The notes beneath the pieces were generated by a model. The model was not told the DNA's origin. It did not search any database and saw nothing but the letters and a program-made list of their open reading frames with translations. A stretch of DNA of 64,000 bases, taken from positions 8,360 through 72,359 of the IMG/VR virus record IMGVR_UViG_3300009169_000019; one strand, written 5' to 3'. A program made the position numbers and the translations under genes. Shown piece by piece: positions 11,525-28,600 of the stretch. The stretch comes from a virus (taxonomy: Duplodnaviria > Caudoviricetes). How positions within the stretch are numbered: the stretch's first letter is position 1; every line of letters begins with the position of its first letter.

Positions 11525-14500
11525 TTATCTATTTGTTGTATTAAATCTTATATCCCAATCTTTTCTAAAATCATCATCAAAAATTGCTCTTATTTGAATT
11601 CCTTCTTTAAATATAGGCATCATTTTTGATAAATATTTTGCAGGTTTTGCTTTTTCTAAAAGATCTTGATCATTTAAAACAAAACCGTATCCTTGACTAA
11701 CAACCGATTCAGTAAATTTAAAAAAATCATCAGCTAATCCAACTACAGGTAGTGGTTTGTTTACAAGATTTGACCAAGAAGGAGCACTATAAAAGAAAGA
11801 AAATTCATCAAAATATTTTCTAAATGCTCTTGCAGCATATGTTCTTAAACCGACATCTTGATCATCGTCATCATCATCACTCAATATTGTAAACATCAAT
11901 GCTCCAATACCTATAATCATTAAGAATTCTCTGTACATTGATTTTATATTACCAATATACATATCTATAAATTCACCTTCTGTTATATTAAATTCTTCAC
12001 CTTTTTCAATAGCTTCAGCTTTTAATAATAAATATTTTTGTTTAGCTGCTTCTATCATATTTGTTCCACTTGAATTAATTATTCCAGTTAATAATTGGGG
12101 TGCTCTTTTACTAAATAATTCTCCAATCCATAAATTAAATTTACCAATTGTATGCACTTCAAGATCCTGATCATATTTTAATTTTCCAAATCTTTCTTGA
12201 ACCATTTGTGGCATCCATGATCTAAATTGCATAGCCATAGAACCTAACATACCCATTCTAATATTATTAATATCATCTCTACTAGAGTTACCTAAAACAT
12301 TTTTGTTTACTTTCTTAATTTTTAATCTAAATCTACCCCATTGTTCACTTTGTAAATCTATTCCGGGTATTTCAATTTTGTCATTAACAATTTTAGCAGT
12401 ATTATAAATTGATTTTGTATCTTTTAAAGTTTTTACTTCATCTTCTATTTTTTTTCTAATAACATCTTGTTCTGCCTTAGGAAGTGAATAAAATGATTCA
12501 TTATATTTATATTTGGCTTTAACATATGTTTTTATATCTACAATCTTTCCATTTTCATCAACCATATGATTTTTCATTATAGCAATTGCAATAGGATATT
12601 GTACAGCTTTATCACTTGCTCTCATCATAAAGAATGCTTTATCTATGGTGTTAGCATTAATAATACTTGAAACAGAAAGTTTATTTATCATTGCTTCTTT
12701 TCTATCTTCTATTAATACATCTGCAACACCTAATAGTCCAAAAGCAATTTCATTTCTTTTGGTTATATCATAAATAGAAGAAGTCCAGTCAGCTGTGTTA
12801 AATATAATACCTTTACTTGCCTGGAAGAATGCATTACCTGTACCACCCACAAAGTTTGCTGTTCCTGATAAAGGATTTAATGCAAGTGTTTTAAGAGAAA
12901 AGAATCTTGTCATCCATCCAAGTACTTTATGTGCAGAATATTCTTTATCTCCAATCTTAAAAGCTTTATCTTCCATTTTACCGGATTGAATATTATAAAA
13001 ATAATAATTAATAAAGTCTGAAAGTAATTGTGAGTTTATTTCGTTTCCTGGTATTTCTTTTTTAATTCCGCTTTCAAGTACAGGTTTACCAAACGGATTG
13101 GTCTCAATGTGAGGTTTATTTTTTTCAACAAACAATAATAATCTTGCTTTATCTTCAATTTCAGACATTGACTGATAATTAGCTAATTGTGCAGACCAAA
13201 TACCAAACACTCTAAACAAATCCATACTCTTTTGAGAATAATCTAATGTACCATCTTCTCTTTCTATACCCATATCTCTAATAAAATGTGTAGGTATAGA
13301 ATGTTCAATAGCACCTGTGATCGGATTGATTTGAGGAGCAAATGGTGATTCTCCAGATTCAACTTCTAAACTTTCAAATATTCCTTTTTTAGAAAACATA
13401 TCACCACCAAAAACAAATTGTTCTAATTTATTTCTACTTATATTAGGAATAAATGCGGGAGAATAATCATCAATTAGTCCTGCTTTATTAGATCTTTTTA
13501 GTAAATCCTGAAAAAAGTTATAAGTTTTTAAAGCAATCGGACTTGCTTCTAGTTTTTTCCATTGTTCAGTTTGCCATTTTTCTTTTGGTTTTAAATATGA
13601 ATTTAATACTTTTTTACCATTGTAATTATCCATGTTTAAATAAGCATTCTTATTTTTATTTTTACCGCCAATATTTACATCATGTTTTTTCAACCAGTTA
13701 TTATATGCTTCTTCCTGAAGTTCTTTATTTCTTCTTTCATTTTTAGAATCATACACAATAGTTTCATAAAACTCTTTTTGTCTTATTTTATCTTTATTGA
13801 ATTTTTCTTCATTAAATTCTGTGTTGTCAATTAACCATATACTATCTTCTGATTGCACAGCATCTTGCATTTTTTTATAAAACTCACTTTGATATTTTTT
13901 TAAAAACTTACCGGTCCATTCGCCTTTAGCATTATAATCTAAAAGAGGTTTAAATAAATCTTTATCAGAATATCCTTTAGAACGAGCCCATTCAACATAT
14001 TCTTTTCTTAATGTAGAAAGTTCTTCATAATCTTTATTAAATAAGTTATCTCTTTTATTTTGAGCATCACCAAGAATTCTACTAAACACCCTAAATGCTT
14101 TTTGAGGAATAGTACTTAATGAACTAAACATACCCGTTAATTTAGATATTTCGGTTTCAGCATCTAACAAATTTACAATACCTGTTTTTTCTTGTGAAAA
14201 TTTAAATGCAATATTTTTAATTGCATTTTGCATATCACTAAGTACAATGTCAGCAGAGGTATTCATTTGGTTGTAGTCATTTATTATTTCATCTACAACT
14301 TCTTTAACATATTCTTCTTTTGTTTCTTTTTTAATTTTTTTAAGTTCATTCATGTAATTATTAAATACACGTGTAGTATTTGTAAATACTTGTAATATTT
14401 CTAATGATTCAAGAGCATCTTTTTCAGTGAGATTGTTACTTTCAATTAATTTTTTATATTTATTAATTTCATAATTACCAAGGTCAATAAACTTTCTAAT

Positions 14501-16813
14501 ATCACCTCTGAGTTGCAAATCTCTTACGGCGTTTTTATATTTAGCTAATTCTATTTGTTTACGCCTACGTTCATCTTCCGTTCTATATTTTTTATTTTCA
14601 AGAATATCCATTACACTGCTTAACTTCTTAATGTATTCAGATAGTTCTTTATCAGCAGATTTTTCATCTCTTAATGTAACGGGAAGTAAATAATTTTTAT
14701 TATCAGGAATTGATGAAAGATCAAAACTACCCATTTCAATTTTATTAATTCCTTCAATAGTTCGTTTCTCTTCTTTTCCTGTGTATGAATAAACTACTTT
14801 AATAGGAATAGCCCTTACAAGTCCAAAGTTTTTAATGTCATAATGTGTTTGAAGAATTTTTTTATACTCTTGTAACTGAATTCTATACATTGTTTCTTTG
14901 TATGATTTTAATTCAGTTTGTTCTTTTCCAATTTCTTGACTCTTCCAATCATATATGTTTGCTGTACCATCTGGTTCAATTACTAACAAGTCAATACTAC
15001 CAGCAACATCTTTTATAGGGTCATATATTTTAACCTCACGCATGAATTTAGTGCCGGGAGCATTGTAGTTTTCAATTAAATCTTGTATATATTTTTCAAA
15101 TAATTTATAAGGATCTGTGTCAAAATATTTACTACTAGAAGCAGCTGGCATTTCTCTTACAAAATGTGTTTCAGGATCAACATAAACGTCTATTATATCC
15201 TGCATCATTTCGTGAATTACATCACCATAATCAGCTTTGAGAAGATCTATTTTCTTTTGTATTTCGCTTCTGTTGTCATTTGGAAATTTACGTTTTAACC
15301 ACGCATCAACATACTTTGAAGTAACTGAAGATTTTATATCTTTACCATTAATGGTGTAGATGTGTCTTTTTTGTTTGGTTTTAGGATCAACGCTGTTGTC
15401 TAATTGAATATCTTTTTGATGTTGTTCAAGTTTTTCTATTCCTTCTAATTGATAATACTCACCTGTTTCTTGAATATTATCTTTAGATAAATTACTAATA
15501 TCTGCTTTTAAAATACTTTCTGCTGATTGAACAAACGGATCTGTAACAGACTTAGTAAATAATTTCTTAATAAAATTTAATAATTTATCCCACCAATTAT
15601 TAAATTCTTTTATTTTAGATTCTGACTCACCAACAGCAGAATGTTTAACAATGTGTTGTGCAATAAGTTTACCTATTGCTTCTTTTTTAAGTTTATTAAT
15701 ATTAAGACTACCGTCTTTATTTCGATATTGACTGTTATTTCTATATGTCTGAACTGTGTCTTGGTATATTTTATATCCCGTAATTTTAGACATCATTTCA
15801 ATAAAGAGAGGATTATTCTCACCCAACATTTCAACAAAAAAGTGAGCAGCTTCTTCCGGTAATGTTGTTATATCTGCTTTACCTTCTATCACTTCAACTA
15901 TCTTATTAAGCATATCTGCTTTAGCAACAGCAGATAATTTATTACCTTCTGCATTTCTTATTTCATCTACAGATTTAACAGATACACCAATCTTTTCTAA
16001 GAAGTTTTGTACTAATACATTTAATTCTTTATTGACTTTTTCTGTAGATTGTGTTTCTTTTTGAAGATATATTTCTTCTTTATTTTTTTCTGTTAATGTT
16101 ATTTCATTCCATGTATTACCATATTCATCTGTAATTTGTTTTACATTCTCTTTACCGTATTGTTTATTAAGAACATTTTTTACAGTATTTTCATAAAAGT
16201 TATAAATAGGTTTTAAAGCACCAAATCCTTCTGTTTCTACTCTTTCAAGTTCTTGTTCAATTTGTTCTTTTTCACGTTTAGCTTCTTCAATTCTTCTTTC
16301 TATATTTTCAGGGTCATTTATTTCTCCATCTAAAAACTTAATCCTATCTTCTTTCTGTTTTTTAAACTCTTCTAAAGTAGTATGGCCCTCAACTTTACTT
16401 GCTGTATTACCACTAGGAAATAATACTTTCTCATATCCTTTTTTAGCTGCATTTTGAATTATTGCTTTTATACCAAAAGTAATCCAGTTATCATTTTTAT
16501 GTAACAAAGCTAAAAATTGATTATCTCCACCAGCATCTATAAAATCTTCAAAAGCTTTATTATAAACATTAGATGAAACTTCTACTTCATCTATTAAGTA
16601 AACCTTTTTACCATTATTATCAGCAGGTATAATAATATTATGAGGAACTCCTCTAAACTTAAAATTATTTCTAAGTTTTTGAAAATAATCTGATTGATAC
16701 TCTTGAACTCTAAGAGTTCTTGGTTGATTTATAAAATTAGGTTTAACAAACTCTTCTATAAAAGCTTGTTTATCTTTATATTCAACACCATTAAATATAT
16801 ATTTACATGCCAT
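11525..16813 (-). CDS. giant virion/ejection polyvalent protein (1762 aa): N-terminal 'QSD' domain half, zincin-like domain, PD-(D/E)XK nuclease, C-terminal hydrophobic region
   Basis: RVQEYQSD...KGYEKVLFP; LPEEAAHFF; AGSIDLL...IYDWKS...IQLQEY; FLMIIGIGALMFTIL near the C-terminus; lies downstream of the vRNAP gene. Confidence 0.75.
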   Translation of the reverse strand: MACKYIFNGVEYKDKQAFIEEFVKPNFINQPRTLRVQEYQSDYFQKLRNNFKFRGVPHNIIIPADNNGKKVYLIDEVEVSSNVYNKAFEDFIDAGGDNQFLALLHKNDNWITFGIKAIIQNAAKKGYEKVLFPSGNTASKVEGHTTLEEFKKQKEDRIKFLDGEINDPENIERRIEEAKREKEQIEQELERVETEGFGALKPIYNFYENTVKNVLNKQYGKENVKQITDEYGNTWNEITLTEKNKEEIYLQKETQSTEKVNKELNVLVQNFLEKIGVSVKSVDEIRNAEGNKLSAVAKADMLNKIVEVIEGKADITTLPEEAAHFFVEMLGENNPLFIEMMSKITGYKIYQDTVQTYRNNSQYRNKDGSLNINKLKKEAIGKLIAQHIVKHSAVGESESKIKEFNNWWDKLLNFIKKLFTKSVTDPFVQSAESILKADISNLSKDNIQETGEYYQLEGIEKLEQHQKDIQLDNSVDPKTKQKRHIYTINGKDIKSSVTSKYVDAWLKRKFPNDNRSEIQKKIDLLKADYGDVIHEMMQDIIDVYVDPETHFVREMPAASSSKYFDTDPYKLFEKYIQDLIENYNAPGTKFMREVKIYDPIKDVAGSIDLLVIEPDGTANIYDWKSQEIGKEQTELKSYKETMYRIQLQEYKKILQTHYDIKNFGLVRAIPIKVVYSYTGKEEKRTIEGINKIEMGSFDLSSIPDNKNYLLPVTLRDEKSADKELSEYIKKLSSVMDILENKKYRTEDERRRKQIELAKYKNAVRDLQLRGDIRKFIDLGNYEINKYKKLIESNNLTEKDALESLEILQVFTNTTRVFNNYMNELKKIKKETKEEYVKEVVDEIINDYNQMNTSADIVLSDMQNAIKNIAFKFSQEKTGIVNLLDAETEISKLTGMFSSLSTIPQKAFRVFSRILGDAQNKRDNLFNKDYEELSTLRKEYVEWARSKGYSDKDLFKPLLDYNAKGEWTGKFLKKYQSEFYKKMQDAVQSEDSIWLIDNTEFNEEKFNKDKIRQKEFYETIVYDSKNERRNKELQEEAYNNWLKKHDVNIGGKNKNKNAYLNMDNYNGKKVLNSYLKPKEKWQTEQWKKLEASPIALKTYNFFQDLLKRSNKAGLIDDYSPAFIPNISRNKLEQFVFGGDMFSKKGIFESLEVESGESPFAPQINPITGAIEHSIPTHFIRDMGIEREDGTLDYSQKSMDLFRVFGIWSAQLANYQSMSEIEDKARLLLFVEKNKPHIETNPFGKPVLESGIKKEIPGNEINSQLLSDFINYYFYNIQSGKMEDKAFKIGDKEYSAHKVLGWMTRFFSLKTLALNPLSGTANFVGGTGNAFFQASKGIIFNTADWTSSIYDITKRNEIAFGLLGVADVLIEDRKEAMINKLSVSSIINANTIDKAFFMMRASDKAVQYPIAIAIMKNHMVDENGKIVDIKTYVKAKYKYNESFYSLPKAEQDVIRKKIEDEVKTLKDTKSIYNTAKIVNDKIEIPGIDLQSEQWGRFRLKIKKVNKNVLGNSSRDDINNIRMGMLGSMAMQFRSWMPQMVQERFGKLKYDQDLEVHTIGKFNLWIGELFSKRAPQLLTGIINSSGTNMIEAAKQKYLLLKAEAIEKGEEFNITEGEFIDMYIGNIKSMYREFLMIIGIGALMFTILSDDDDDDQDVGLRTYAARAFRKYFDEFSFFYSAPSWSNLVNKPLPVVGLADDFFKFTESVVSQGYGFVLNDQDLLEKAKPAKYLSKMMPIFKEGIQIRAIFDDDFRKDWDIRFNTTNR

Positions 16814-16814
16814 T

Positions 16815-17552
16815 TTATTCTTTTATTTTAATATGATTCCAATTTTGACCAGACTGAATAGCTTTAATTGTTCTAAGTTTTACGTTATACTTATCAGCTA
16901 TAATTTGCTGTTTTACTTTATCTTTCAAAAGATATTTAATTTCTTTTACTTGTTTTTCAGTAAGTTTTGAAAATCCATTATTACTGCCTTTAGAAATAAT
17001 ATCTGTAACAATATTATGTTTCTTTTTTAATTGTGTAATTACAGAGGGTGATAAATTGTGTTTTTCAGCAATTATATCTTGTCTAATCCCAGATTTTAAA
17101 TCTTCTAAAATTTGCAAATTTCTTTGTTCTTTTTGTTGTCTAATAAAAGCAGTTTGTTCTCTGGTAATTTTTAATTTATCTTTATGTTTTCTTCCTACAG
17201 AATCCCAATATTTACTGTTTGAGATTTTTCTTTTTTCTATTGTTTCTTCAGATTGTTTTATTCCTAAACAATTACCTGCTACACTGCAAATATTATATTC
17301 AGGTTTTAAACTATCTAAATAAAATTGTTCTCTTTCAAGTAATAAATTTTCATCACAATTTTCTAAAATAGAAAATTCAAAATTATCTGAACCATATTTA
17401 TGAAAAGCTCTTTGTAAAGCTAATGAATGATGTACATTACATTTTAAATCTGTTAAATGTCTTTTCCATCTTTTATTAAGTCTTATAGAACTTCCTATAT
17501 AAGATTTTCCATTTATCTTATTTTTTATTTGATATATTCCTGATGTTTGCAT
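16815..17552 (-). mobile_element. free-standing GIY-YIG homing endonuclease gene (start revised to MQTSGIY)
   Basis: SGIYQIKNKINGKSYIGSS...RW..H...LQRAF...EQFYLD...YNI, a NUMOD3-like segment and two HTH-like C-terminal repeats. Confidence 0.9.
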
Positions 17553-17557
17553 AACTA

Positions 17558-17589
17558 CAAATATACAACAAAATTCTGAATGTACCGAA
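17558..17589 (-). promoter_or_regulatory. Bacteroidota-type promoter of the GIY-YIG gene
   Basis: Minus strand TTCG-N20-TATATTTG, ending 5 nt before the ATG, which implies a near-leaderless mRNA. Confidence 0.6.
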
Positions 17590-17590
17590 T

Positions 17591-19693
17591 TTAAGAACAT
17601 TTTATTTGAAGAATTTTACTATTTTCCATGATTTTCAACAAGTTATCAATATCCTGTTCTTGGTATTGCGCTTTTTCATCTGTTCTACTCCACATCAATC
17701 CTTTATCGGTAGCAAACTGAGCATGTCCTTTTATAGAAGGTTTAATTAGTGGTGTAGATATTTCTTTTTCTGTATAGTTGGTACCTCCTGGAACTGTTAG
17801 GTTAGAGTAATATTGAGAAGGGTTTTGTTTAAAATTATTTAAAGCTTTTTCAAATTCTTCTTTCGAAATTAACACTTCTTGTTCTTGAATATTACTTTTA
17901 TAGTATTTTATACCATTTACACCCTTTACTATCTCATAATTAGTGTCATTAAAGTTAAAAGCTGAATAATTATCTTTAAAAGGGTCTGTAGTATAAGCTG
18001 TATTAATTTCAACAGTATAACTATAATTAGCAGCAAATGATGTTAACTTTTCTTCAATAGTATTACCTTCTGATTCTTTTAATAAATTAACTTGATCTTT
18101 AGGTATTTGAAAATCTTGTTGTATTTTATTCCAGAATGTATTATTATTACCTATTTGTTTCCAAAGTTTATTTATTTTATCTAAATTATTATATAAGTTT
18201 GATACAACTTTAAATTGATATTGTAAATTAGATTCTTCACCTATTGATTTATTTTTAGGAAGTTGAAAATATATAAATTCATTTTTTTCTATATCTCTTT
18301 TATTAAAGTTAGAAGTTCTATAATCTTCTTGATCTTTTTCACGTTGAAACATTCTTTCATTTACATCATTTGGTGAAAGTGTTAATTTACCAAAATATAT
18401 ATCTTGTACTGATGAAAAACCACCTACAGATTGTTCTTCTGATTCTGAATTGTATATAAAAAAATCAACAGGTATATTATATTGAGCAAGATTATTTATT
18501 TCTTTTTCAGATAAATTAGAACCATCTTCTTTAGTAAAAATAGTTTCTTTTGAAGAAATATGTTTAATATTTGCAACAACCTCACCATTAGAATTAACTA
18601 AAGTATATTCTGTTAACCAACCTTTATTATCTCTATTTAAATTTTTAAAAGTATAACCAGAAGCAGGTATTAAATAAGCATATGTTTTATATTTTTTTTC
18701 AGAACTACCCCAACCATCATGTATTGGTACAGCATTTATATCTTGCATATGAGAATTTATTTTCTCATATTCTGTAACGCTATCAACAGTAAAATCTAAA
18801 TCATGAATAGGTGCATTAGAAGGTCTATAAATAGTTTCACCTTGACCTGCAATAGCTAAACTACCTACAAGTTTATAATTAAAATCTTTACCTGTGTATC
18901 TACTAATTATATCTTTGGCTAAATTATTTCCTGAAACAGCTTGTTCATAATTTAATTTTTCAACTTTAGAATTAGGTGAACCAATAAAATTTTGATTTTC
19001 AGTTAATATATTAAATGCAATTTTATCAGCAGCATCTTTAAAATAACTTCCTTCTTTTAATACAAATGGTTTTGTAAATTTATTTAAAAATTCAGTTACT
19101 GCTTTAAGTATTTTTAATAATAAATTTCTTTCTTCTTTTGTTTTATTTGTCCATTGTTGTAATAAAGATTCTGTAATAAGTTTACCTAATGCTTCTACTT
19201 TAACTTGTTTTTCATTATTATAAACTGGCATATACTCATCATATACTGCCTGATATCCTGACCAATCTTTAATGTTATCCATTAAATCTCTTATTAATGG
19301 ATGTGTTTGACCCATTAACATTACAGTCATATGAACAGCTTCTTCTGGTATTGTATCTAATTTTTTTTCTACAGAATGATATATAATTTTATTAAGAACA
19401 TCTGTAGCACCTAATGCATCAACTCCCCATCTTTCTTTAAAGTTTTTTATTTCATTAGATTGAACACCATATCTAGAAAGAAAATTTAAAAGTTTTGCAT
19501 CTAATTTTTTATCAGCTTCTTTTATTTCTTGAGATGTAAGTTGATATTGTACGTCTACTTCAATTGAAACTTCATATTCATTTTTTGGAACAACTCCTTC
19601 ATACTTATCCCATAAGTAATAAGCCATATCTTCACCTCTAGAAGATACTAATGATTTCCAAGAATCTAAATTTTTATTAGGACATGTTGCCAT
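17591..19693 (-). CDS. virion polyvalent protein (700 aa): zincin-like domain, nucleotidyltransferase-like domain, first half of the 'QSD' domain
   Basis: IPEEAVHM; LVGSLAI...IHDLDF...VDFF...REKDQED; YSNLTVPGGTNYTE...GHAQF...WSRTDE. Confidence 0.7.
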   Translation of the reverse strand: MATCPNKNLDSWKSLVSSRGEDMAYYLWDKYEGVVPKNEYEVSIEVDVQYQLTSQEIKEADKKLDAKLLNFLSRYGVQSNEIKNFKERWGVDALGATDVLNKIIYHSVEKKLDTIPEEAVHMTVMLMGQTHPLIRDLMDNIKDWSGYQAVYDEYMPVYNNEKQVKVEALGKLITESLLQQWTNKTKEERNLLLKILKAVTEFLNKFTKPFVLKEGSYFKDAADKIAFNILTENQNFIGSPNSKVEKLNYEQAVSGNNLAKDIISRYTGKDFNYKLVGSLAIAGQGETIYRPSNAPIHDLDFTVDSVTEYEKINSHMQDINAVPIHDGWGSSEKKYKTYAYLIPASGYTFKNLNRDNKGWLTEYTLVNSNGEVVANIKHISSKETIFTKEDGSNLSEKEINNLAQYNIPVDFFIYNSESEEQSVGGFSSVQDIYFGKLTLSPNDVNERMFQREKDQEDYRTSNFNKRDIEKNEFIYFQLPKNKSIGEESNLQYQFKVVSNLYNNLDKINKLWKQIGNNNTFWNKIQQDFQIPKDQVNLLKESEGNTIEEKLTSFAANYSYTVEINTAYTTDPFKDNYSAFNFNDTNYEIVKGVNGIKYYKSNIQEQEVLISKEEFEKALNNFKQNPSQYYSNLTVPGGTNYTEKEISTPLIKPSIKGHAQFATDKGLMWSRTDEKAQYQEQDIDNLLKIMENSKILQIKCS

Positions 19694-19694
19694 A

Positions 19695-22600
19695 TTAACA
19701 TATTGATTTTAAGATGTTACCAATTTGAAGAGGAGTGTATCCAATACTTTCTAATAATTTACTATTTATTTTTGAAACAGGATAAGAAACTGCGTCTTTT
19801 AATGTAATTGTTTTACCACTTACAACTTCTGCACCTTCAACACTAGTGGATTGTTGAGATGACAACAAACGTTGTTGAGCTAACTTCAATCCTTCTAAGA
19901 AAGCTTTATCAATTAATTCATTTGTATTATGTGTAAAGTTTTCATATTGAAGAAGTTTTTTAGCAGCTTCTGAATTAGGATTTTGAATAAAGCTTTCTAC
20001 AACTAAATCTTTCATTATTTGTAAATTAGCACGTTTACCTACCTCTGTAAGTTTAGGAGCTATTTTTACACCATATCCACCTTTTGCTACATAAGCATCG
20101 TAAGTAACTTTGTCAAACTTACCATTTTTATTTGATTGATAAGCATGTTCTACACTTCCGTATTCTCTAGTGACACCATCAATACTTTCATAACTAAACT
20201 TTCGTGGAGCTAAATTAGATAATATTCTTGTAGAAGTGGTTGATTCAGCTTGTCCCCAATATACATTAATAGTTCCTTTAGGTTGAACACTAGCGGATGG
20301 TTGGACCACTTTAGTTGCAGGAGTTATATTATAAAGATGAACGCTACCTCCATCCATCAATGTTTTACCTGCATATTTAGCACCTTTTTCAAAATTAGCC
20401 CATGTACCAAATCCCTCAGCTTTAGCAAACTCATCTTTGGTGTAAGAAAATCCATTACCTACAACTTTATCTCCCTGAAGTTTTACAAACCCTCTGTGAG
20501 TGATATTAACTAAGTTACCTTTATCTGTAGTGTATACACCATCTCCTTTATAGAAAGAATTATGATAACTACTGTTTCTTACAGTGGTTGTTGCTTGTCC
20601 AGTTTGTACCCAATCTTCAATAATATTTAATTTAATTTCACCAAGGGGTTGTTGTTTTTGTATAGATGTTTGTAAAGTTGGTTGATTTAATATTGTAGCA
20701 GCAGCTTGTGGATTTAATTGTTGTAATGTTTGTATTGCCGCTTGTGTAGCTTCTTGAAGATTACGTAATGTCTCTTGTGTTACTGCTGGAACACTTGCTA
20801 AAGAACTTATTGAAGGTGTTTCTTCATATTGAGAAGGTTTTTTATATCCTTCAGGAGTAACAATATTATTCTTTTTAAGATTAGATTGTAACTGATTTTC
20901 CATTGATGTTTCGGTGTAATTTCTTCCATCACCTGAAGCAACAATTGGTGAATAAATAGCGTATTCTCTTTCTTTAAATTTTCCTTGAATTGTTTTGTAA
21001 CCAATTCTTTGATGAAGATAAGTGTCAAATGCTTTATAGAGCTTACCAAATTTCTTCAGTTTTTCAATCTGACTATCAGTTATTCCATTCTTACGTTTAG
21101 AAGTTGCAATGTATTCATAATTTGAATCAGAGTAATCTGTATCTAATAATACATTACCTGTATACTTTTCAAACTTTTTAAATTGGGGTCTTATTACAAT
21201 ATTTCTATCAGATTTATTATTTTGATGAAATTGCTTCCATACCAGATTAGGATCAATAGTAAATTCACTATTCATATATACATCTAATATACTATTAACC
21301 ACTTGACTATACAAATGTGCGGGCAATATTTTAGTATAATTAATTGTACTATCTTGAAGACCTGACTGAAGAATACTAAAAATAGAAAGATTGTATACAA
21401 AGTTTTCAAGTTGTGTATTACCAGAAGCCTTTGCGTAATCTAATAAATTGTTTATAGACTCAATTAATACATCATTTTTAAATGTAGTCATTTTATTTCT
21501 AAACAGTTTAATATTATCTTGATCATCAACATTATTGGCAAATATAGGTATTAGTTCTTTAATTGCTAAATTTTGAGATATGTTATAATCTTCAGAATTT
21601 TTAAGTAATTGTAATTGTTTAGTGATAGAATTTTCTCCCATCATTAATTCTTTAAACTTAGCAGATATATTTGTTTCAATCTCCCCAAGTTTAAAATTTG
21701 TATTCTGAATAACATATGTAATAAAAAATCTCTGATATTTATTTATTAATAATGACTTATCATCATTGGAAATAAACTTTTCTCTGTCTTCTAAAAACTC
21801 ATACATTTTTTCAAATACAGGATATGCTCTTCTATCTAATGAAATAAACATGTTTTCAAATACGGAAAAAAGATCTTCTTTTTGTTTTTTCATTTCCCCA
21901 ATAAATGTCTTATCTAAAATAGAATCCGGGTTCTTAATAAATCCTGCTTCAAGCATTCTATTCCATCTAATAAGCTGCAATTGATTTTCAATAATAGTTT
22001 TTGTTTTTTTATTATCATATCCTATTGCACCAATAAATTCAGTAAGATAGCTTGACTGCTCAACATAATCTAAATAATCTGTTAATAACATAATCTGCAT
22101 AGCTGCATCATCTTCTGTAATCTTATATTTAGGATTATTTAGATTTTTAATTGCATTCTTTAACTCATCTACTGTTGGCTTTTTATACTTGTTTTTGATT
22201 TCATTAATTCCTTGAAATAATTTTTCTTTAAGAGCTTTTATTTCCACTCTTAAATTAATCACTTCTTGTTCATTAAGACTTTCTGTAGTATTTAATATAT
22301 TTGTTTTTTCATTAATCTGATCAATAACAGAAGACATTTCATTATTGTATATTTTCACATATTTAGAAATACTATTAATAAAAATTTGCTCTCTAAAAGT
22401 TACATTTTTATTTACTTTTCTGAAAATTGAGTTATTCATGTTTTCTGACTTCATAAAATTCTCAACAGCAGGTTGATTAAATAAATATGCAATTTCTTTC
22501 ATTGGCACCCCAAGCTTTTGTAAATAGAACCAAGTGCCAGCAGTATTAAAATTAATATTTAAAGAAAATACAAAAGGATCTTTAGCAGCATCTACAAATC

Positions 22601-25600
22601 CAGAAAGTGCTTCAGATATATTTTCAGAAATCCATCTACCTTCAGCATCTGTTTTAGCATTTATGTAAAACTCACCTAATTTAGACTCGTTATGAGAAAG
22701 ATTAATACTTATTGCTTTTACATATTTTCCATCTTCTGTTTTAAATTCGGGATCATATTTAACTAAGAATTTCATTTTTGAAACTTCATACTTACCAGAT
22801 AATACAATATCTGAAATTTGTGACATAATGTGACTTGTAGATTGCAATGCTGCAATACCAACAAGACGCTTACCAGTTAAATATCTTTCACGTGTTTCAG
22901 CTGATTGAATAAATTTACGAAGAGCAAGCATAGAATTTTCAGCATCTTTCTTTCCTTTAAGATCATTAATTTCATTAGCTAATGATTTAAGAGTGGCTGT
23001 ACTATTAGGCATTATAAGCTGACGATAGTTTTCTGGCATGGAAATTAATTCTTCCATAGTTTCTCTTAATTCATTTTGAAGAGATTCCATACTATCTTGT
23101 CCGATTTCTACATATTCAATACTTTCAATAATGGGTGTAAATGCTTTATTATTAATCCTATTATTCTTAATAACATCTTTACGATATTTATTATACTTTA
23201 TTAACGCATCTTTAAATGTAGTGTAAAAAATATAATCTTCACCAGTGATGTTTTGCGCAACTAAATAATCTTCAAGATCTCCAAATTTACCCAATCCGCT
23301 TCCAGCTGAAAATTGATTTAAATCTTCAACCATGTCTTTAAATTCTTCTTCCGTAAGATTTTTAATTTTATTTTTTACAGTTTTTGGAAGATCTTTATAA
23401 TAGTCAGTTGATTTAAAATCATTTATTGTTTCCTTAGTGAATCTAGTATATTTTAATTTATAATTAGGAATATACAAATTCATTTTATCAATATCAAAGT
23501 CAGATCCTGCCTTACCTACTATTTCAGTAGGCACTACAATCATATCTCCACTTTCTCTTGGTAAAAATCCTTTTACTACTATATTTTCAATAGAGTTCAT
23601 ACCTTGTGTTGGAATACGAAAACCAATCATATTAAGAAGTCTCTTATCCATGTTTGCTGGTATTTGATAAACCCCATTTACAAGTTTCATTCCAAAATCT
23701 TCAGGTTCAACATTTTCAAAATACCAGGGAATATAAATTTCCATTTTGGAAATCTTTCCATCTTTTAATTCATAGAATTTTAAATCAGATGATGTAGGAA
23801 TAAGAGATTTAGTTTCATCTTCTGTTAACTGATCATCGGGTTTCATCTCAGTATATACACCGTCTTTTAAATACATCATGGTTCTGTTGGTAGAATTGTA
23901 TCCCGTAAATGCAACCTGTACAGCAGGTTTACCAAACATTTTAGCAGATATAACTCTGCTATCCATTATAGAGTTTAATATATTATCTATTTTATCTCTA
24001 TTAGCTAATGTATCAAATCTATATAACAATCCTTTAGTGTTAGGATTTACATCAAGTGCATCAACTAAATTAGAGGGAAGATCTCGTTTAGTTAATTCTT
24101 TACGTAAAAGATTAATCATGTTAGTGTAATCATTTACGGTGTAACTACCATCTTTTTCTTTTGTTATTCCTAATTCAACTAAAAGTTGTTCTTTACCTTT
24201 TTTAACTATATTTTCAATAAGTCTATTATAATTTGTAATTAATACTTCTGCTCGATCATTAATATATTTACCATTCACTTTAAAATTAGACATGATAAGT
24301 TTTGTAAGCTGAGTACCTCTAACTACTTTGTTTTTATAAACAGCAGGTTGTTCAGATTGAATACCGTAAAATTTAGTATATAGTGATTGAACTGGTAATC
24401 CAGAAGGTAATTGCCATTGTTTATTTTTTAATTCAATATTAACTGCACCATCATTTTTAATTATAGAAACAAACTCACCAGTTTTAGGATTAAGCATTGC
24501 CCCCACTTTTTCACCAGATTCAAATCCAATAACATCTATTTGATTATTTTGTGCAGCTAAATATAACTTTTCATATTCAGTGCCCTCAACACTTCTGTAA
24601 AATTTAGGTTGTACCGAGTGTTTTAAAAATACAGTGTGCATCATTGATGTGTTCACTGCATATCCAAAGTATTGAGGTTTAATTACAGGAAGAGGCACGT
24701 TAGGATTGCCTTTTTTAAGAATTCCTTCTGCCCATTTAACTGCGTATTTTCCTTTGTTATATGTTTTATATGCAGGATCTGTTTTAGATTTATTAGATCT
24801 TGCAACAACTTCATATGCAATTTCATAATCTATTTGATCTAATTGTTTTTGAGAAAGCTTACCACTTAAAAATAACATGTCCCTATACATATCACTCATA
24901 ATCCAACCTTGACCATCTGCCTCATTTAATTCTACATATGCTTTAATTTCTCCTGTAAATTTACCATCTTTAAGAATAAAGTTCTTAAATGTACCATCTT
25001 CATTAAAATTTGCACCCACTCTATTTTGTGCTTCTGTTAAAGATATACCATCTAAAAGAATCGACTTATATAAATTTTCAGCTATCTGCTTGTAAAAATT
25101 AGATACGGCAGTTACATCTTTAAATGATATATTTTTAAATGTTTGAATCTTTTCAGAAGCTCTTATTTTTTCATCAAATCTAGGAATTAAACTATCCATT
25201 TTAGATATAATGTGAGGATTGTCTACTATCGCATCTTTGGACGAATTGATACCATTAGCACGTTTTGCCAAGTCTTTATAAAGAGCAGGGTGTCCATATA
25301 ACAATTTATGTTGTTCTGTAACTGCAAGTTCTTTATTTATTGTAATATATTTTACAAGTTTTTCTAATTGATTTCTTGTTATGTTACTACTATCAATTTG
25401 AAAATAATCATTAAGCACTTGAGTATTAATAGCATCCGTTGTAAATTGATCTTCTGTAATCTGATTTATAATTCCAAGTTCTATCAATGCATCAATTGTA
25501 AAGTTTACAGTTTCTTTAAGATCGTTTTTAATAAGTTCTTTGATGACATTATCTGCTAAAAATTCTTCTTTAGTTATTTTACCAGCAAGTAAGTTTTCAA

Positions 25601-28600
25601 ATCTAACCTGTAATCCTGATTTTCTTTCACCTGATTTTTTAAGTTCCTTTTCTGTTTTAAATTTAAGAACATCTTTAAAGTGACCAAGATATTTTACATT
25701 ATCACTATAATATTGAATATTCGATTTTAAAGCTTTTTCTACTATTGCGGCATCAATTTCATCCTCTAAATGTTGTAAATAAATATCCAACACCTTATTA
25801 AAGTTAGGATTGTCAATATCATATTCAGCTATTCTTGCACTAATAAAAGGTTTAGAAAATGTTAATCCAAATTCTGAACTCTTATCTGAATTAATAATTG
25901 TAAAATAAATTGGTTTCAATCCTTCTTTATCTGCATTTATTATATAATTAATTTCTTGCATTATCCTGTCAGGATATGTAAGATTAGCTGTATCAACACC
26001 ATTTGTATCCATTGAAGTTACACCAGAAATAAGGGTGTAATCAATGTTATTTTTTTTATTACCATTTTCATCAAATATTAATCCTCCTGGTTTTAACAAT
26101 TGTGAATTAGTTTGATACGCAAATACATTCACAACTTGTTCTCCATTTTCATCATATCCCGCTGTACCAAATTGAGGATTCGATGCTACAAAATCAGCAA
26201 GTGTTTTAGATTCATTTAATGAAGAAAGAACATAGTTTATGCTAGCAGGCAATGTAATAGAATATTGAGTTTCTCCAGAAGCTGTTGTATGAGTTAAGAC
26301 TGAGCTATCGTATCTCATTATTTTCTCAATATCAATTAGCTTTTTCATATTACCAGACTCAGGTCCAATATTAGAATATAAATCTGCAATATTGATTATG
26401 CTATTTTCTTCATTACTAATAATTGAATTTTTAATTTTTATAAAAGAACTAATAACATCAGATCTTTTGTTTATTATATTCAAAGGAATATCAGAAATAG
26501 TTTTGTTTTCTTTATATTCAACTCCAGTAAATGCTACACCCATATCTTTTAAATACAGTAATGCTGTTTGAATAGATATGTTTTTATCATTATTATTTTT
26601 TAATTTTAAAAACTCTCTGTATTGAACGCTTTTTTTATCAAATACAATATTACCTGTATCATCAATTCCTAAAAGCTGATTATTATTTTCTTCTTTATCA
26701 GTTACAAGCTTAAGATTTCTTGGAAGTTCTCCCTGCCATTCTTCACGAATTCTATCTTCATTTGTGCTCTCTAAAGCATTCATTAAATAAATTGAAGAAT
26801 CTTCGTTGATGATAAGTTTTGAAGGTGTATTTTTTTTATTCATTAAGCTTTTTTCAAAGCCAATCAACAATTTTAAATCATCAATGTTTATATTTTCCTT
26901 TGTAAAATAATTAATTGCTTCACCTGAGTATTTTAATCTTTTTTTCAATTTGTTAATCCATACAAAATTAGGTTTGTATTGATTAACTTTTTTATCGAAA
27001 TACTTTTCATCAAGTTTTTTAAACATTGCTTTTAAAGCATCAACAAACAACACTTCTCCGTTTTGATCAACTTCTAATTTAGAATATGTACCATTCAATT
27101 CATTTAAAAGTAAATTTAATGTTGCATCATAATCAACAAGTTCAGGTAAATTTAACGAATTTTTCTTAGTGTATATTTGATTTGTTTTAGAATCATATAT
27201 ATCTTTAGTTAAACTACCAATGAGAATTTTAAATGACGTAGCAGTTAATCTTCTAGGATCTATATAGATTGTGTCTCTAATACCAGAAGTATCAACTACA
27301 TCTAATTCATTAGGAGCACTATCTTCTTCAGCACCATCTTTTACTTCTGCAAATTGTAATCCATACTTTTGTAATGATTGCTTTAATATATTATATACAA
27401 TTGTTGAATTTTGAAATGCATTTTCAATCATTGACGCATATCTATTCTTTTCACTAAACTTGTTGTATGCAATATTTTTTATTTCATTGTTTTCTTCTAC
27501 TGTTAAATTTCTACCGATTTGTTTTTGATAATTAATAAAAGTTGGTGCAAAATAATTTGTAAAAAATATGGATCCCTGTCCAAACAATTGTTCATAAATA
27601 TTAGACATACTTGTTTCAAAAAGCTTTCTTAATATTTTATTATTGTTTTCATCTTCTGTAAGAAGAGATTCAATATTTAAAGAAATAAAGTTTCCTTTAT
27701 TATCTGTAAATAAATTAGGATTATGAAGATTCTGAAAGAAATATGAACTTAACCCATCAATAAATTGTGTAGTAAATTCTTGTGTTGTATTTGGTACCAC
27801 CTCTCTATATGATGTACCCATTTCAGAAATATCCCTAGCAAATCTTACATTGGAATAATTACCTGCATTAATTTTATTAAAGAGTTTATTAATGGCGGAT
27901 TCACCTTCAGATTTTTCTTTTTTAGAAAGACCTACATATTTTTTTATTGTGCTCCAAAGATCTTTAAAGAACTGTTTAATTTTTCCAAAAAATCCTTTTT
28001 CTTCAGTGGATATTTGTTCTTGTTCAGAAAGAATATAATTTCTAAATTCTTCAGCAAGCATTTCTCTAACATCATAGTGTGATGCTTCAGAATAATTTTT
28101 TGTTTCTTTTGAGAAAGGATTAGTAAAACTTCCTTCTCTATTTCTAAATTCTTCAACAAATTCATTCTGTTCTTGTACAGTTAGATAGGCATTCCAAACG
28201 GCTTCAAATGCTTCATGAAAACCGGTTCCTATTTCTGCATTTTCATATATATAAACAATACTATTTTTAAAAGCACCCCAAGCTTTTCCATCAATTAATT
28301 CTGCAACTTTAACAACTTTAATATTTGGAAGTTTTGATTTAAACCATTCTTCTACTTTTTTAAAATCTTCAGTTTGTATTACAGATTGCTCAAGTTGTAA
28401 TCTATATGCTTCATTGGGTTTAACACCACCTAATCCAGCACTAAGAATATTTACACCACCACTTTGATTAAATGCTTTTAATGCTTCTTCTTTTTCTGAT
28501 TCAGAAAGAGGTTTTGGTTGTTCGGGAGAAACAGGTTCTACAAAAATACCCTGAGCTTGTATTTGTTCTAATCTTTTACCAATTGAAATAGGTTCAGTTT

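What the first reader, a model, noticed from the sequence alone, without database searches (positions are those of the whole stretch)
16380..17825. A conserved domain split between two genes around a non-intronic homing endonuclease
Seen: the 700-aa protein ends with YSNLTVPGGTNYTE...KGHAQF...WSRTDE, and the 1762-aa protein begins with TLRVQEYQSD...W....IK...AAKKGYEKV. From recall of large polyvalent phage proteins, these motifs normally occur in this order within one domain (GG.NY.E...H...R...E.QSD...GY..V). The GIY-YIG ORF fills the gap with only 38 nt and 1 nt of non-coding flank, leaving no room for a group I intron core. Inference: a naturally split domain reassembled in trans, analogous to phage Aeh1 nrdA split by mobE. 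Here the Cys-bearing caps sit exactly at the break and would create a safe landing site for the endonuclease.
Basis: partly seen in the sequence, partly recalled or inferred. Interest (0 to 1): 0.75.

Follow-up and report, generated by a model that had tools for sequence, protein, structure and literature searches.

The report
Endonuclease-split phage gene with docking caps
A selfish endonuclease gene sits inside a giant phage protein gene and cuts one conserved domain into two genes, whose new ends carry a conserved, cysteine-tipped pair of peptides that recurs at other break points in related phages and probably clips the pieces back together without any splicing.

Summary
Genes A (700 aa, 17591-19693, minus strand) and B (1762 aa, 11525-16813) carry the two halves of one conserved domain. 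That domain is a single stretch in 233 of 259 related proteins and in 54 of 66 related viral loci. A free-standing GIY-YIG endonuclease gene (16815-17552) fills the break, with 38 nt and 1 nt of spacer.

New here: the Cys-bearing caps ('...L.I.C.-stop' and 'MACKYI(Y/F).G..Y') are one homologous pair. They flank GIY-YIG genes at three or more other break points of the same domain. They also occur at endonuclease-free stop/start junctions, always at protein termini.

- Between the window and locus L002 the caps changed almost only synonymously, 9 synonymous against 2 nonsynonymous codons. They are therefore translated, not intron RNA.
- The cap-endonuclease-cap unit is a ~90% identity island between two otherwise unalignable phages.
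- A complex model pairs the two cap strands, with the cysteines probably opposite each other. Score 0.67, best control 0.01.

Binding, activity and the absence of splicing are inferred, not measured. The domain has no named family; a GNAT-like fold is only a lead.

The closest precedent is the phage Aeh1 nrdA/mobE tails. This scan reported the same phenomenon on two other genomes (e1-6125575, e1-6125590).

The parts
17591..19693 (-). Gene A, 700 aa: upstream fragment of the polyvalent protein. It starts 'MATCPNKN...' and ends with the N-half of the split domain plus the N-cap.
   Evidence: ORF list. No Pfam or PHROG family. Its tail aligns to the contiguous domain of homologues.
17669..18136 (-). 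N-half of the split domain (A residues ~520-675): block 1 'ANYSYTVEINTA' and block 2 'YYSNLTVPGGTNYTE...KGHAQF...WSRTDE'.
   Evidence: Aligned with 28 contiguous domains. The invariant residues are kept in the window.
17594..17668 (-). N-cap (A residues 676-700, '...QEQDIDNLLKIMENSKILQIKCS'): a helix, then a strand ending in Cys699, one more residue, then the stop codon at 17591-17593.
   Evidence: It does not align to most contiguous homologues. The same motif ends the upstream fragment at other break points. All 5 nt differences from L002 are synonymous. It lies in the predicted interface.
17553..17590 (-). 38-nt spacer holding 'TTCG-N20-TATATTTG-N5-ATG'. This looks like a Bacteroidota-type promoter for the endonuclease gene (-7 box at 17558-17565).
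   Evidence: The same 'TTTGG-N18-20-TAT(A/C)TTTG-N4-5-ATG' layout is seen in three cassette types. The promoter consensus is recalled, not tested.
16815..17552 (-). Free-standing GIY-YIG homing endonuclease gene: 245 aa from the conserved Met. The longest ORF reaches 17600.
   Evidence: Pfam GIY-YIG 1.9e-11. PHROG homing endonuclease 4.4e-27. 87% identical copy at the same site in L002. Single copy in the record.
16721..16813 (-). C-cap (B residues 1-31, 'MACKYIFNGVEYKDKQAFIEEFVKPNFINQP'): Cys3, a beta-hairpin and a helix. Its ATG lies 1 nt after the endonuclease stop codon.
   Evidence: Absent from contiguous homologues, whose alignments start at B residues ~28-32. The cap HMM gives 44 terminal and 0 internal hits. 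Of 26 N-truncated homologues, 24 start with it. It lies in the predicted interface.
16064..16720 (-). C-half of the split domain (B residues 32-250): block 3 'RTLRVQEYQSDYFQKLR', block 4 '...NDNWITFGIKAIIQNAAKKGYEKVLFPSGNTASKVEGH...' and block 5 '...GFGALKPIYNFYENTV...ITDEYGNTWNEI'.
   Evidence: Alignment A4. Hits in 488 proteins.
11525..16813 (-). Gene B, 1762 aa: downstream fragment. After the domain it carries a PD-(D/E)XK nuclease region (residues 523-746).
   Evidence: ORF list. Pfam PDDEXK_1 4.2e-07.

Best explanation
A and B are two pieces of what is one polyvalent (multi-domain, probably virion-delivered) protein in most related phages. The break lies in a hypervariable surface loop of a conserved ~300-400-aa domain. 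It falls between block 2 (...GHAQF...W.R.D) and block 3 (R.LE.QSD.FQK.R).

The break is occupied by a three-part unit:
1. An N-cap that ends the upstream protein: a helix plus a strand, '...L.I.C', one residue, then stop.
2. A free-standing GIY-YIG homing endonuclease gene with its own short promoter-like spacer.
3. A C-cap that starts the downstream protein: 'MAC', a beta-hairpin 'KYI(Y/F).G..Y' and a helix.

No RNA or protein splicing takes place. A, the endonuclease and B are translated separately. The two caps dock on each other: the N-cap strand pairs antiparallel with the first C-cap strand, the cap helices pack together, and Cys699 of A probably faces Cys3 of B, which would allow a disulfide or a shared metal. 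Docking brings the last strand of the A half next to the first strand of the B half, so the domain's sheet is rebuilt.

The cap pair is a portable module. It is homologous at every break point, while the endonuclease in the slot varies. The cap-endonuclease-cap unit, with short flanks, moves between phages by endonuclease-driven recombination, and the caps make the fission harmless.

Shown: the split, the contiguity in relatives, cap homology across sites, caps only at termini, protein-level selection on the caps, and the identity island. Inferred: docking, Cys-Cys contact, retained activity, the homing mechanism, and the target in the block-3 DNA.
For: 1. Split of a normally contiguous domain. 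99 of 120 homologues, 233 of 259 proteins and 54 of 66 loci have it in one frame. A profile of the domain finds 1655 cluster representatives at E<=1e-3, and most of the best 150 match the whole profile in one stretch.

2. Same caps at different break points.
- Site 1, before block 3: window, L002, L027, L030.
- Site 2, after block 3: L028, L057, L033, L036, L068, L069.
- Site 3, inside block 4: L040, L066.
All show '...(K/N)(S/N)G.L.I.C.*' and 'MAC(K)(Y/H)I(Y/F)(K/N)G..Y'. L057 and proteins P0254/P0255 are cut twice, giving middle pieces with a cap at each end.

3. Caps are terminal only. The C-cap HMM gives 44 terminal and 0 internal hits above 15 bits. The N-cap HMM gives 12 terminal and 4 near-terminal hits. 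Both were run on 558 sequences. 24 of 26 N-truncated homologues start with the cap, against 5 of 233 contiguous ones.

4. Cap junctions without an endonuclease, with stop and start overlapping: L076, and the TAG-recoded phages L071/L078/L079.

5. Caps are translated and under purifying selection. Window against L002: N-cap, 5 of 5 changed codons synonymous; C-cap, 4 synonymous and 2 not; endonuclease, 41 and 31.

6. Mobility. Window and L002 are 85-97% identical from about 250 nt before the A stop codon to about 170 nt into B. Elsewhere they are 30-50% identical, apart from the conserved blocks. A lake-water contig from another sample carries the same A-tail/endonuclease/B-head arrangement at 94.5% identity (80 differences in 1446 nt, no gaps).

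7. Docking model. Score 0.67 (runs 0.65, 0.67, 0.71), best of 3 controls 0.01. That mark was reached by 58 of 80 solved complexes and 2 of 110 mismatched pairs; these counts hold only roughly because my own alignments were used. The runs agree in at least 62% of contacts and the partner's pLDDT is at least 73. The lowest-error contacts include A696:B6, A697:B5 and A695:B7 (an antiparallel register that puts C699 opposite C3), A682 with B19/23/28, and A671-674 with B33-36.

8. The loops of this domain tolerate large inserts. L061/L065 carry a 513-aa in-frame insert with an ART-PolyVal domain.
Against: - No experiment and no RNA data exist; no RNA run holds the stretch.
- The complex model is a prediction. 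Halves of a split domain tend to score well whatever their caps do.
- The Cys-Cys apposition is my reading of the register, not a listed contact.
- The window's copy departs from the family at nearly invariant positions: 'MWSRTD' for 'GWFRSD', 'LRVQEYQSDYFQKLR' for 'RRILEVQSDLFQKGR', 'FGIKA' for 'FFVKS'. Some site-1 split relatives have lost the QSD motif altogether ('VQEIQQPDF'). Split copies may therefore be under relaxed constraint.
- Cap-associated endonucleases are polyphyletic: 6 changes on the tree, at least 4 of them forced. 'The endonuclease carries the caps' therefore cannot be the whole story.
- In L068 the C-cap leads into a P-loop kinase rather than the rest of the domain. Not every cap pair rebuilds a domain.
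- No endonuclease-free allele of this phage was seen in four DNA runs.
Confidence: 0.7

Rival explanations
1. The intervening sequence is a group I (or other self-splicing) intron that encodes the GIY-YIG enzyme, as in the T4 td intron with I-TevI. On this reading the 'caps' are intron core read in frame, and a continuous A-B mRNA is made.
For: The size would fit: about 113 nt (N-cap plus spacer) and 94 nt (C-cap) flank a 738-nt ORF. GIY-YIG enzymes are classic intron passengers (recalled). No RNA data are available to exclude splicing.
Against: - No Rfam family matched at E<=10 in 16400-18000 on either strand. This is weak evidence, because the ORF interrupts any intron core.
- The caps change like protein: 9 synonymous against 2 nonsynonymous codons between window and L002.
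- Across cassette types the caps keep their amino-acid pattern while the codons differ.
- The same caps occur at junctions where stop and start overlap, which leaves no room for an intron.
- A conserved ATG opens every C-cap.
Confidence: 0.04
2. The caps join A and B covalently through the peptide backbone. They would be either a drastically reduced split intein or another Cys-dependent ligation chemistry.
For: Split inteins with an endonuclease gene between the halves are known in phage genes (Dassa 2009, PMC2677866; abstract seen in the listing). Both caps carry an invariant Cys right at the break.
Against: - The caps are 25 and 31 aa, far below any HINT fold.
- Pfam finds no intein/Hint domain in A or B.
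- The N-fragment has only one residue after its Cys.
- The C-cap does not end in His-Asn before a Cys/Ser/Thr; it reads '...NFINQP|RTL'.
- The caps have no sequence relatives in the PDB.
Confidence: 0.05
3. The halves no longer work together. The endonuclease insertion inactivated a dispensable domain, or A and B now act independently. The caps would then only be general inter-subunit tags of the polyvalent protein chain.
For: - The window's blocks deviate at nearly invariant positions, and some split relatives have lost the QSD motif.
- Cap junctions also lie between unrelated modules: L068 leads into a kinase, and L076 follows a different protein.
- 108 of 120 homologues have a Cys within their first five residues whatever their N-terminal motif. 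Cys-tipped ends are therefore a general feature of these protein chains.
Against: - All columns that are invariant across the 29-row alignments are kept in both window halves.
- Both halves remain long open frames, and their conserved blocks are recognisable at E<1e-20.
- The model rebuilds one sheet across the break, pairing A671-674 with B33-36.
- The split form persists in two or more diverged phages and in another sample.
Confidence: 0.15
4. An alternative on origin: the tails arose anew at this insertion from DNA dragged in with the endonuclease, as proposed for Aeh1 NrdA. On this view they are not a pre-made portable module.
For: This is the published scenario for the only studied case (Crona 2010, PMC3045599; introduction and discussion read).
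Against: The caps at three or more break points, next to at least four endonuclease lineages and at endonuclease-free junctions, are clearly homologous to each other.
Confidence: 0.03

Closest known systems
Aeromonas phage Aeh1 nrdA-a / mobE / nrdA-b: a fragmented ribonucleotide reductase assembled by tails from the mobile element (Crona et al. 2010, PMC3045599; abstract, introduction and discussion read)
   Same: A free-standing homing endonuclease gene splits a gene that is single in relatives. The new C- and N-termini carry extra peptides absent from unsplit homologues. No RNA or protein splicing is involved. The peptides are held to restore assembly.
   Different: - MobE is an HNH enzyme; here the enzyme is GIY-YIG.
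- The Aeh1 tails are unique, oppositely charged sequences, and the authors expected such tails to differ from case to case. Here the caps are one conserved, Cys-tipped family reused at several break points, with several endonuclease lineages, and also without any endonuclease.
- In Aeh1 the tails were shown by experiment to be essential. Here nothing has been measured.
Fractured genes: split inteins with a free-standing endonuclease gene between the halves (Dassa et al. 2009, PMC2677866; abstract only)
   Same: The layout is host-gene half, endonuclease gene, host-gene half, in phage-like metagenomic DNA, with conserved add-ons at both new termini.
   Different: Those add-ons are full intein halves that splice the protein. 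Here they are 25 and 31 aa with no HINT motifs, so any joining must be non-covalent, or at most a disulfide or a metal bridge.
Phage T4 mobA plus the gene 60 bypass element as one mobile cassette (recalled: Bonocora et al. 2011; related preprint 10.1101/2022.08.31.505936 seen in listing only)
   Same: A homing endonuclease travels together with an accessory element that neutralises the damage of its insertion into an essential gene.
   Different: In T4 the accessory is an RNA signal for ribosomal bypass. Here it is a pair of docking peptides.
Docking domains of modular polyketide and non-ribosomal peptide synthases (recalled, not searched)
   Same: Short matched C- and N-terminal peptides order and hold together successive polypeptides of a giant multi-module protein.
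   Different: No sequence relation was tested. Those domains are not linked to mobile endonucleases and do not rebuild a split domain.

Membership tests
Free-standing GIY-YIG homing endonuclease | GIY-YIG catalytic domain | tested here: met
   Pfam PF01541, E 1.9e-11, 44.6 bits against a cut-off of 22.6, residues 21-103 of the ORF. PHROG homing-endonuclease families down to 4.4e-27.
Free-standing GIY-YIG homing endonuclease | Own ORF with its own start, not embedded in an intron or intein | tested here: met
   The frame differs from A and B, and the frame relations vary between loci. The start Met and an upstream promoter-like motif are conserved. No Rfam intron and no Hint domain.
Free-standing GIY-YIG homing endonuclease | Presence/absence polymorphism at the site among related genomes | tested here: met
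   8 of 66 related loci carry a GIY-YIG gene in the domain; 54 are uninterrupted.
Free-standing GIY-YIG homing endonuclease | Site-specific cleavage of the empty allele, followed by homing | not testable with these tools
   Only indirect evidence: a ~90% identity island around the cassette between diverged phages.
Endonuclease-split gene assembled by terminal tails (Aeh1 NrdA type) | Gene single in relatives, split here by an endonuclease gene | tested here: met
Endonuclease-split gene assembled by terminal tails (Aeh1 NrdA type) | Extra peptides at the new termini that are absent from unsplit homologues | tested here: met
   Alignments to contiguous forms stop near A675 and start near B28-32. 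The cap HMMs hit termini only.
Endonuclease-split gene assembled by terminal tails (Aeh1 NrdA type) | Tails required for assembly or activity | not testable with these tools
   Prediction only. The caps lie in the lowest-error part of the modelled interface. Score 0.67 against a best control of 0.01; the mark was reached by 58 of 80 solved complexes and 2 of 110 mismatched pairs.
Split intein (fractured gene) | N- and C-intein halves with HINT blocks; the C-intein ends His-Asn before Cys/Ser/Thr | tested here: not met
   No Pfam Hint/intein match in A or B. The add-ons are 25 and 31 aa. The sequence after the C-cap is '...INQP|RTL'.
Group I intron carrying a homing endonuclease | Conserved ribozyme core (P3-P9) | tested here: inconclusive
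   No Rfam match at E<=10 in 16400-18000. A core interrupted by a 738-nt ORF could be missed.
Group I intron carrying a homing endonuclease | Flanking intron sequence evolves as RNA, not as codons | tested here: not met
   Cap codons between window and L002: 9 synonymous and 2 nonsynonymous changes.
Polyvalent protein (Iyer et al. 2017, PMC5512222) | Giant multi-domain phage protein that combines several effector-type domains | tested here: met
   B carries PD-(D/E)XK. Homologues with the same domain carry ART-PolyVal, Zeta toxin/AAA_33, SprT-like, MuF-C or LysM (precomputed Pfam). The neighbouring gene encodes 5012 aa.
GNAT acetyltransferase fold (for the split domain) | GNAT beta-alpha core recognisable by structure comparison | tested here: inconclusive
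   Two AF2 models (pLDDT 61.6 and 73.5). VIA-align best hit 9dsb_A: Z 8.1, rmsd 3.4, 107 aligned; Z 7.7, rmsd 4.9, 113 aligned. Foldseek top rows are N-acetyltransferases, but at E 0.23. The tool states that Z under 8 is common by chance.
GNAT acetyltransferase fold (for the split domain) | Sequence match to acetyltransferase families and the acetyl-CoA loop motif | tested here: inconclusive
   None of the 28 members matched an acetyltransferase Pfam family at E<=0.1. The PDB profile search found only a ylbP N-acetyltransferase at E 0.76.

The most novel reading that the evidence does not exclude
The Cys-tipped cap pair is a self-contained, portable split-protein docking module, possibly locked by a disulfide or a shared metal between the two terminal cysteines. 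These phages would use it generally to string giant polyvalent proteins together from separately translated genes. GIY-YIG endonucleases would exploit and spread it as a cap-endonuclease-cap cassette that can cut a protein in almost any permissive loop without killing it. This would be a third way, beside introns and inteins, for a selfish nuclease to make its insertion harmless, and a natural analogue of engineered split-protein tags.
Probability: 0.45. Interest if true: 0.85.

Novelty: new variant of a known kind. Interest (0 to 1): 0.72.

Why it matters
Introns and inteins are the textbook ways for homing endonucleases to live inside essential genes. The only studied third way is a single case, the Aeh1 RNR tails, whose authors expected such tails to be idiosyncratic.

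Here the tails are a conserved family. They recur at several break points, with several endonuclease lineages, and at endonuclease-free junctions. That makes 'harmless gene fission by portable docking peptides' a general and testable mechanism.

Three consequences follow:
- It would explain how giant phage effector proteins can be broken up and reshuffled as modules.
- It bears on annotation: 26 of 259 family members here are fragments that would be misread as truncated genes.
- It offers a small (about 25 + 30 aa) natural heterodimerising pair, possibly lockable through Cys, that could be tried as a split-protein tool.

Tried and rejected
- tblastn of either half against 50,697 GenBank phage records: no match.
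- Rfam on 16400-18000: only three chance snoRNA rows at E 5.7-10.
- Domain naming failed. No Pfam family at E<=0.1 in more than 1 of 28 members. No PHROG. No PDB sequence relative better than E 0.0012 over 53 residues. ESM Atlas gave only unnamed clusters at 0.84.
- The first AF2 model was poor (pLDDT 61.6). Foldseek on the second model found nothing at E<=1e-3.
- RNA evidence: no RNA holder listed.
- Laying four DNA runs gave no contig that skips the endonuclease gene. The joints seen lie in variable linkers of A and B.
- I suspected that the contiguous locus L006 holds a fused, unsplit version of the cap pair ('...NNGKLVSQSEFGATYKFNNYLY...'). The cap HMMs give no internal hit above 15 bits, so I dropped the idea.
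- I suspected inteins in the large in-frame inserts of L061/L065, L060 and L066. L061 holds an ART-PolyVal domain; the other two have no Pfam family.
- A 40-aa cap query against 5.8 billion proteins returned only 8 close relatives, because the word filter is too strict for such a short query. It is therefore no census.
- The positional-variability count is biased for the first nine codons, because the loci came from a pattern that fixed them. I rely instead and on loci found by domain homology.
- The caps have no relatives among PDB sequences.
- Supplementary files of the papers were not seen. Crona 2010's Figure S5 on the T4 gp39/gp60 tails may bear on the comparison.
- Searches for prior description found no paper describing a conserved cap family at endonuclease-split phage genes. 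Terms used: 'homing endonuclease / split gene / GIY-YIG / split intein', 'fragmented gene / tails / free-standing', 'genes-in-pieces' and 'polyvalent proteins'. A term search inside Iyer 2017 found 0 mentions of GIY-YIG, homing, split or intein.


Full report
**What is there.** The window is bases 8360-72359 of a 72,359-nt IMG/VR virus record judged about 56% complete. Four genes run head to tail on the minus strand:
- a 5012-aa giant (19695-34733);
- A, 700 aa (17591-19693);
- a GIY-YIG ORF (16815-17600);
- B, 1762 aa (11525-16813).

The middle ORF matches Pfam GIY-YIG (E 1.9e-11) and PHROG homing-endonuclease families (4.4e-27). A has no family. B has only a PD-(D/E)XK nuclease region. The endonuclease start conserved among relatives is the Met of 'MQTSGIYQI' at 17552.

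**The domain is normally contiguous.** A search with B residues 1-250 found 488 proteins of 969-3084 aa.
- In 99 of the best 120, the tail of A (about residues 520-675) and the head of B (from about residue 30) align to one protein, the A part directly upstream.
- Of 66 related IMG/VR loci, 54 have both parts in one open frame, 8 are split with a GIY-YIG gene between, 1 is split by another gene and 3 are cut by the contig end.
- A profile of 28 contiguous copies (A1) finds 1655 cluster representatives at E<=1e-3 among 1.84 billion. Most of the best 150 match the whole profile in one stretch.
- Over all 259 proteins fetched, 233 hold blocks 2, 3 and 4 together.

The domain consists of five very conserved blocks separated by hypervariable linkers:
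1. ANYSYTVEINTA
2. YYSNLTVPGGTNYTE..P.I.GHAQF...GWFRSD
3. TRRILEVQSDLFQKGR
4. NQFLQLLNKDNNW..F.KSIIQDSAKKGYEKVLFPSGNTASKVEGH
5. GFGALKPIYNFYENTV...TDEYGNTWNE

One linker even hosts a whole ART-PolyVal domain in L061/L065. The window's break lies in the linker between blocks 2 and 3.

**The caps are one portable family.** Contiguous homologues stop aligning near A675 and begin near B28-32. A676-700 and B1-31 are therefore additions. The same additions appear at other break points of the same domain, each with a GIY-YIG gene in between:
- after block 3: L028, L057, L033, L036, L068, L069;
- inside block 4: L040, and L066 with another gene in the slot.

Upstream fragments end '...DIYAEMKKSGELIVDCG*', '...IIKDLQKSGDLKIDCN*' or '...VRELEKNGLLKIKCD*'. 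Downstream fragments start 'MACKHIYKGITY...', 'MACKYIYKGTTY...' or 'MACKYTYNGQTY...'. L057, and proteins P0254/P0255, are cut twice and yield middle pieces with a cap at each end.

A pattern scan for the cap's first nine codons found 14 stretches. They include junctions with no endonuclease, where stop and start overlap: L076, and three roughly 155-165-kb phages that read TAG as a sense codon, L071/L078/L079.

HMMs of the two caps hit termini only. For the C-cap there were 44 terminal and 0 internal hits above 15 bits. For the N-cap there were 12 terminal hits and 4 followed by a 65-aa extension. Both were run on 558 sequences. Of the 26 homologues that lack block 2, 24 start with the cap, against 5 of the 233 contiguous ones. 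Conversely, among the 80 closest GIY-YIG genes in IMG/VR, only 7 are followed by a cap. Caps are therefore not a general property of these endonucleases' surroundings.

**Not an intron, not an intein.**
- Rfam finds nothing. This is weak evidence on its own.
- Between the window and L002 the N-cap has 5 changed codons, all synonymous. The C-cap has 4 synonymous and 2 nonsynonymous changes. The endonuclease has 41 and 31. With roughly a quarter of random changes expected to be synonymous, 9 of 11 is about 1e-4 by my own binomial estimate. The caps are translated and selected as protein.
- The overlapping stop/start junctions leave no room for an intron.
- No Hint domain is present, and 25 + 31 aa cannot form one.

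No RNA run holds the stretch, so splicing is excluded by argument, not by measurement.

**Mobility.** The window and L002 are 85-97% identical from about 250 nt upstream of the stop of A, through the N-cap, endonuclease and C-cap, to about 170 nt into B. Elsewhere they fall to 30-50%, apart from short islands at blocks 4 and 5. Their A proteins even have different N-termini. This is the footprint of a cassette with co-converted flanks shared between otherwise distant phages. A lake-water contig from another study carries the same arrangement at 94.5% identity.

On a tree of the catalytic domains (84 rows), the 16 cap-associated endonucleases need 6 changes of state, at least 4 of them forced by well-supported branches. 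In 500 shuffles the mean was 14.8 and none was as low as 6. The caps are thus the constant and the endonuclease in the slot is the variable.

Sites 1 and 2 flank block 3 on either side. The block-3 coding DNA is therefore the likely recognition sequence, and the window's unusual block 3 ('TLRVQEYQSDYFQKLR') may protect it from self-cleavage. Both points are inference.

The spacer before the endonuclease ATG keeps 'TTTGG-N18-20-TAT(A/C)TTTG-N4-5-ATG' in three cassette types. This matches the Bacteroidota promoter consensus as I recall it, and it hints at the host.

**How the halves would meet.** A520-700 and B1-255 were folded together with their alignments (A3, A4).
- Score 0.67 (runs 0.65, 0.67, 0.71); best of three controls 0.01.
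- That mark was reached by 58 of 80 solved complexes and 2 of 110 mismatched pairs. These counts hold only roughly because my own alignments were used.
- The runs agree in at least 62% of contacts, and the partner's pLDDT is at least 73.

No similar complex is solved, so the pass is not from memory. Halves of one domain are nevertheless expected to score well.

The informative part is where the lowest-error contacts lie:
- A695-697 contact B5-7 in an antiparallel register, which puts Cys699 opposite Cys3.
- I682 of the N-cap helix contacts I19/V23/I28 of the C-cap helix.
- A671-674 contact B33-36, so the last strand of the A half lies beside the first strand of the B half.

The model therefore makes the caps a small alpha/beta clasp that closes the loop. 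The invariant cysteines suggest a disulfide or a shared metal, but nothing here tests that.

**What the domain is.** No sequence library names it. Two AF2 models (pLDDT 61.6 and 73.5) both put GNAT acetyltransferases on top of the whole-domain structural matches. The best hit is 9dsb_A: Z 8.1, rmsd 3.4, 107 aligned and Z 7.7, rmsd 4.9, 113 aligned. Foldseek's top rows are N-acetyltransferases at E 0.23. These values are within the range the tool calls common, so the GNAT fold is a lead only. GNAT domains are known in polyvalent proteins (Iyer 2017, passages found).

**Points against full function.** The window's copy departs from the family at several nearly invariant positions. Some site-1 split relatives have lost the QSD motif. 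In L068 the C-cap leads into a P-loop kinase rather than the rest of the domain. The caps may therefore be general connectors of polyvalent-protein pieces, and some split domains may be decaying.

**Comparison and novelty.** The nearest precedent is Aeh1 nrdA-a/mobE/nrdA-b. There, tails that came with the endonuclease are essential for RNR activity, and the authors predicted that such tails would differ from case to case (PMC3045599). Here the tails are a conserved, reusable family.

My literature searches found no description of it. This scan has already reported the same phenomenon on two other genomes (e1-6125575, e1-6125590), and a related 'Cys-strand / Cys-socket' docking idea in giant freshwater phages (e1-5648780).

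What this report adds:
- the several break points and the endonuclease-free junctions;
- the terminal-only statistics;
- the codon test;
- the identity island;
- the polyphyly of the endonucleases;
- the contact map.

Noticed in passing
window 19670-19721 (minus strand): A second Cys-tipped junction, without an endonuclease. The 5012-aa giant ends '...IGNILKSIC' (stop at 19695-19697) and A starts 1 nt later with 'MATCPNKNLDSW'. Many homologues start 'MATCPNKN', 'MSCPNTN' or 'M..C(I/V)N..HPEY'. 108 of 120 have a Cys within their first five residues, and 7 of 120 within their last three.
   Followed up: partly
window 17553-17590; L028 5354-5404; L033 4844-4879: A conserved 'TTTGG-N18-20-TAT(A/C)TTTG-N4-5-ATG' lies just upstream of the endonuclease start in three cassette types. 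It looks like a Bacteroidota -33/-7 promoter (consensus recalled), with almost no leader. It hints at a Bacteroidota host.
   Followed up: partly
L071 3549, L078 10818, L079 3480: Three 155-165-kb viral contigs have many in-frame TAG codons in long genes, so TAG is apparently read as a sense codon. They carry the same 'MACKYI(Y/F)KG' start directly overlapping the stop of an upstream gene that ends '...EEYC(E/N)'.
   Followed up: partly
L061 3001-4539 and L065 (same insert): A 513-aa in-frame insert sits between blocks 1 and 2 of the domain and contains an ART-PolyVal ADP-ribosyltransferase domain (E 4.5e-09). The domain's loops can host whole enzymes.
   Followed up: yes
L057 896-6498; proteins P0254, P0255: The domain is cut twice. 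The middle pieces (201-226 aa) start with a C-cap. They carry an N-cap '...LLEIDC' followed by a conserved ~65-aa extension ('KGKLKAEKG...GGVDLTIGK...') of unknown nature.
   Followed up: no
L068 5925 onward: The same cassette type as in L028/L057 is followed, after the C-cap, by a Walker-A kinase module ('ILPIGTSGSGKST') instead of the rest of the domain. This suggests module shuffling at cap junctions. P0258, which has the same motif, carries Zeta-toxin/AAA_33 Pfam hits.
   Followed up: no
L066 2279-4297: At break point 3 the slot between the N-cap and the C-cap holds a 672-aa ORF with no Pfam family, not an endonuclease. An ORF with the same C-terminal end lies upstream of the endonuclease in L097.
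   Followed up: no
linkers of L008, L013, L017, L029, L042, L063 (translations): Many hypervariable linkers contain a short hairpin-plus-helix motif of the type '...F.T.EEA..(F/W)I'. It resembles the C-cap's 'Y..G..Y...EEF' layout. Whether the cap derives from it was not tested.
   Followed up: no
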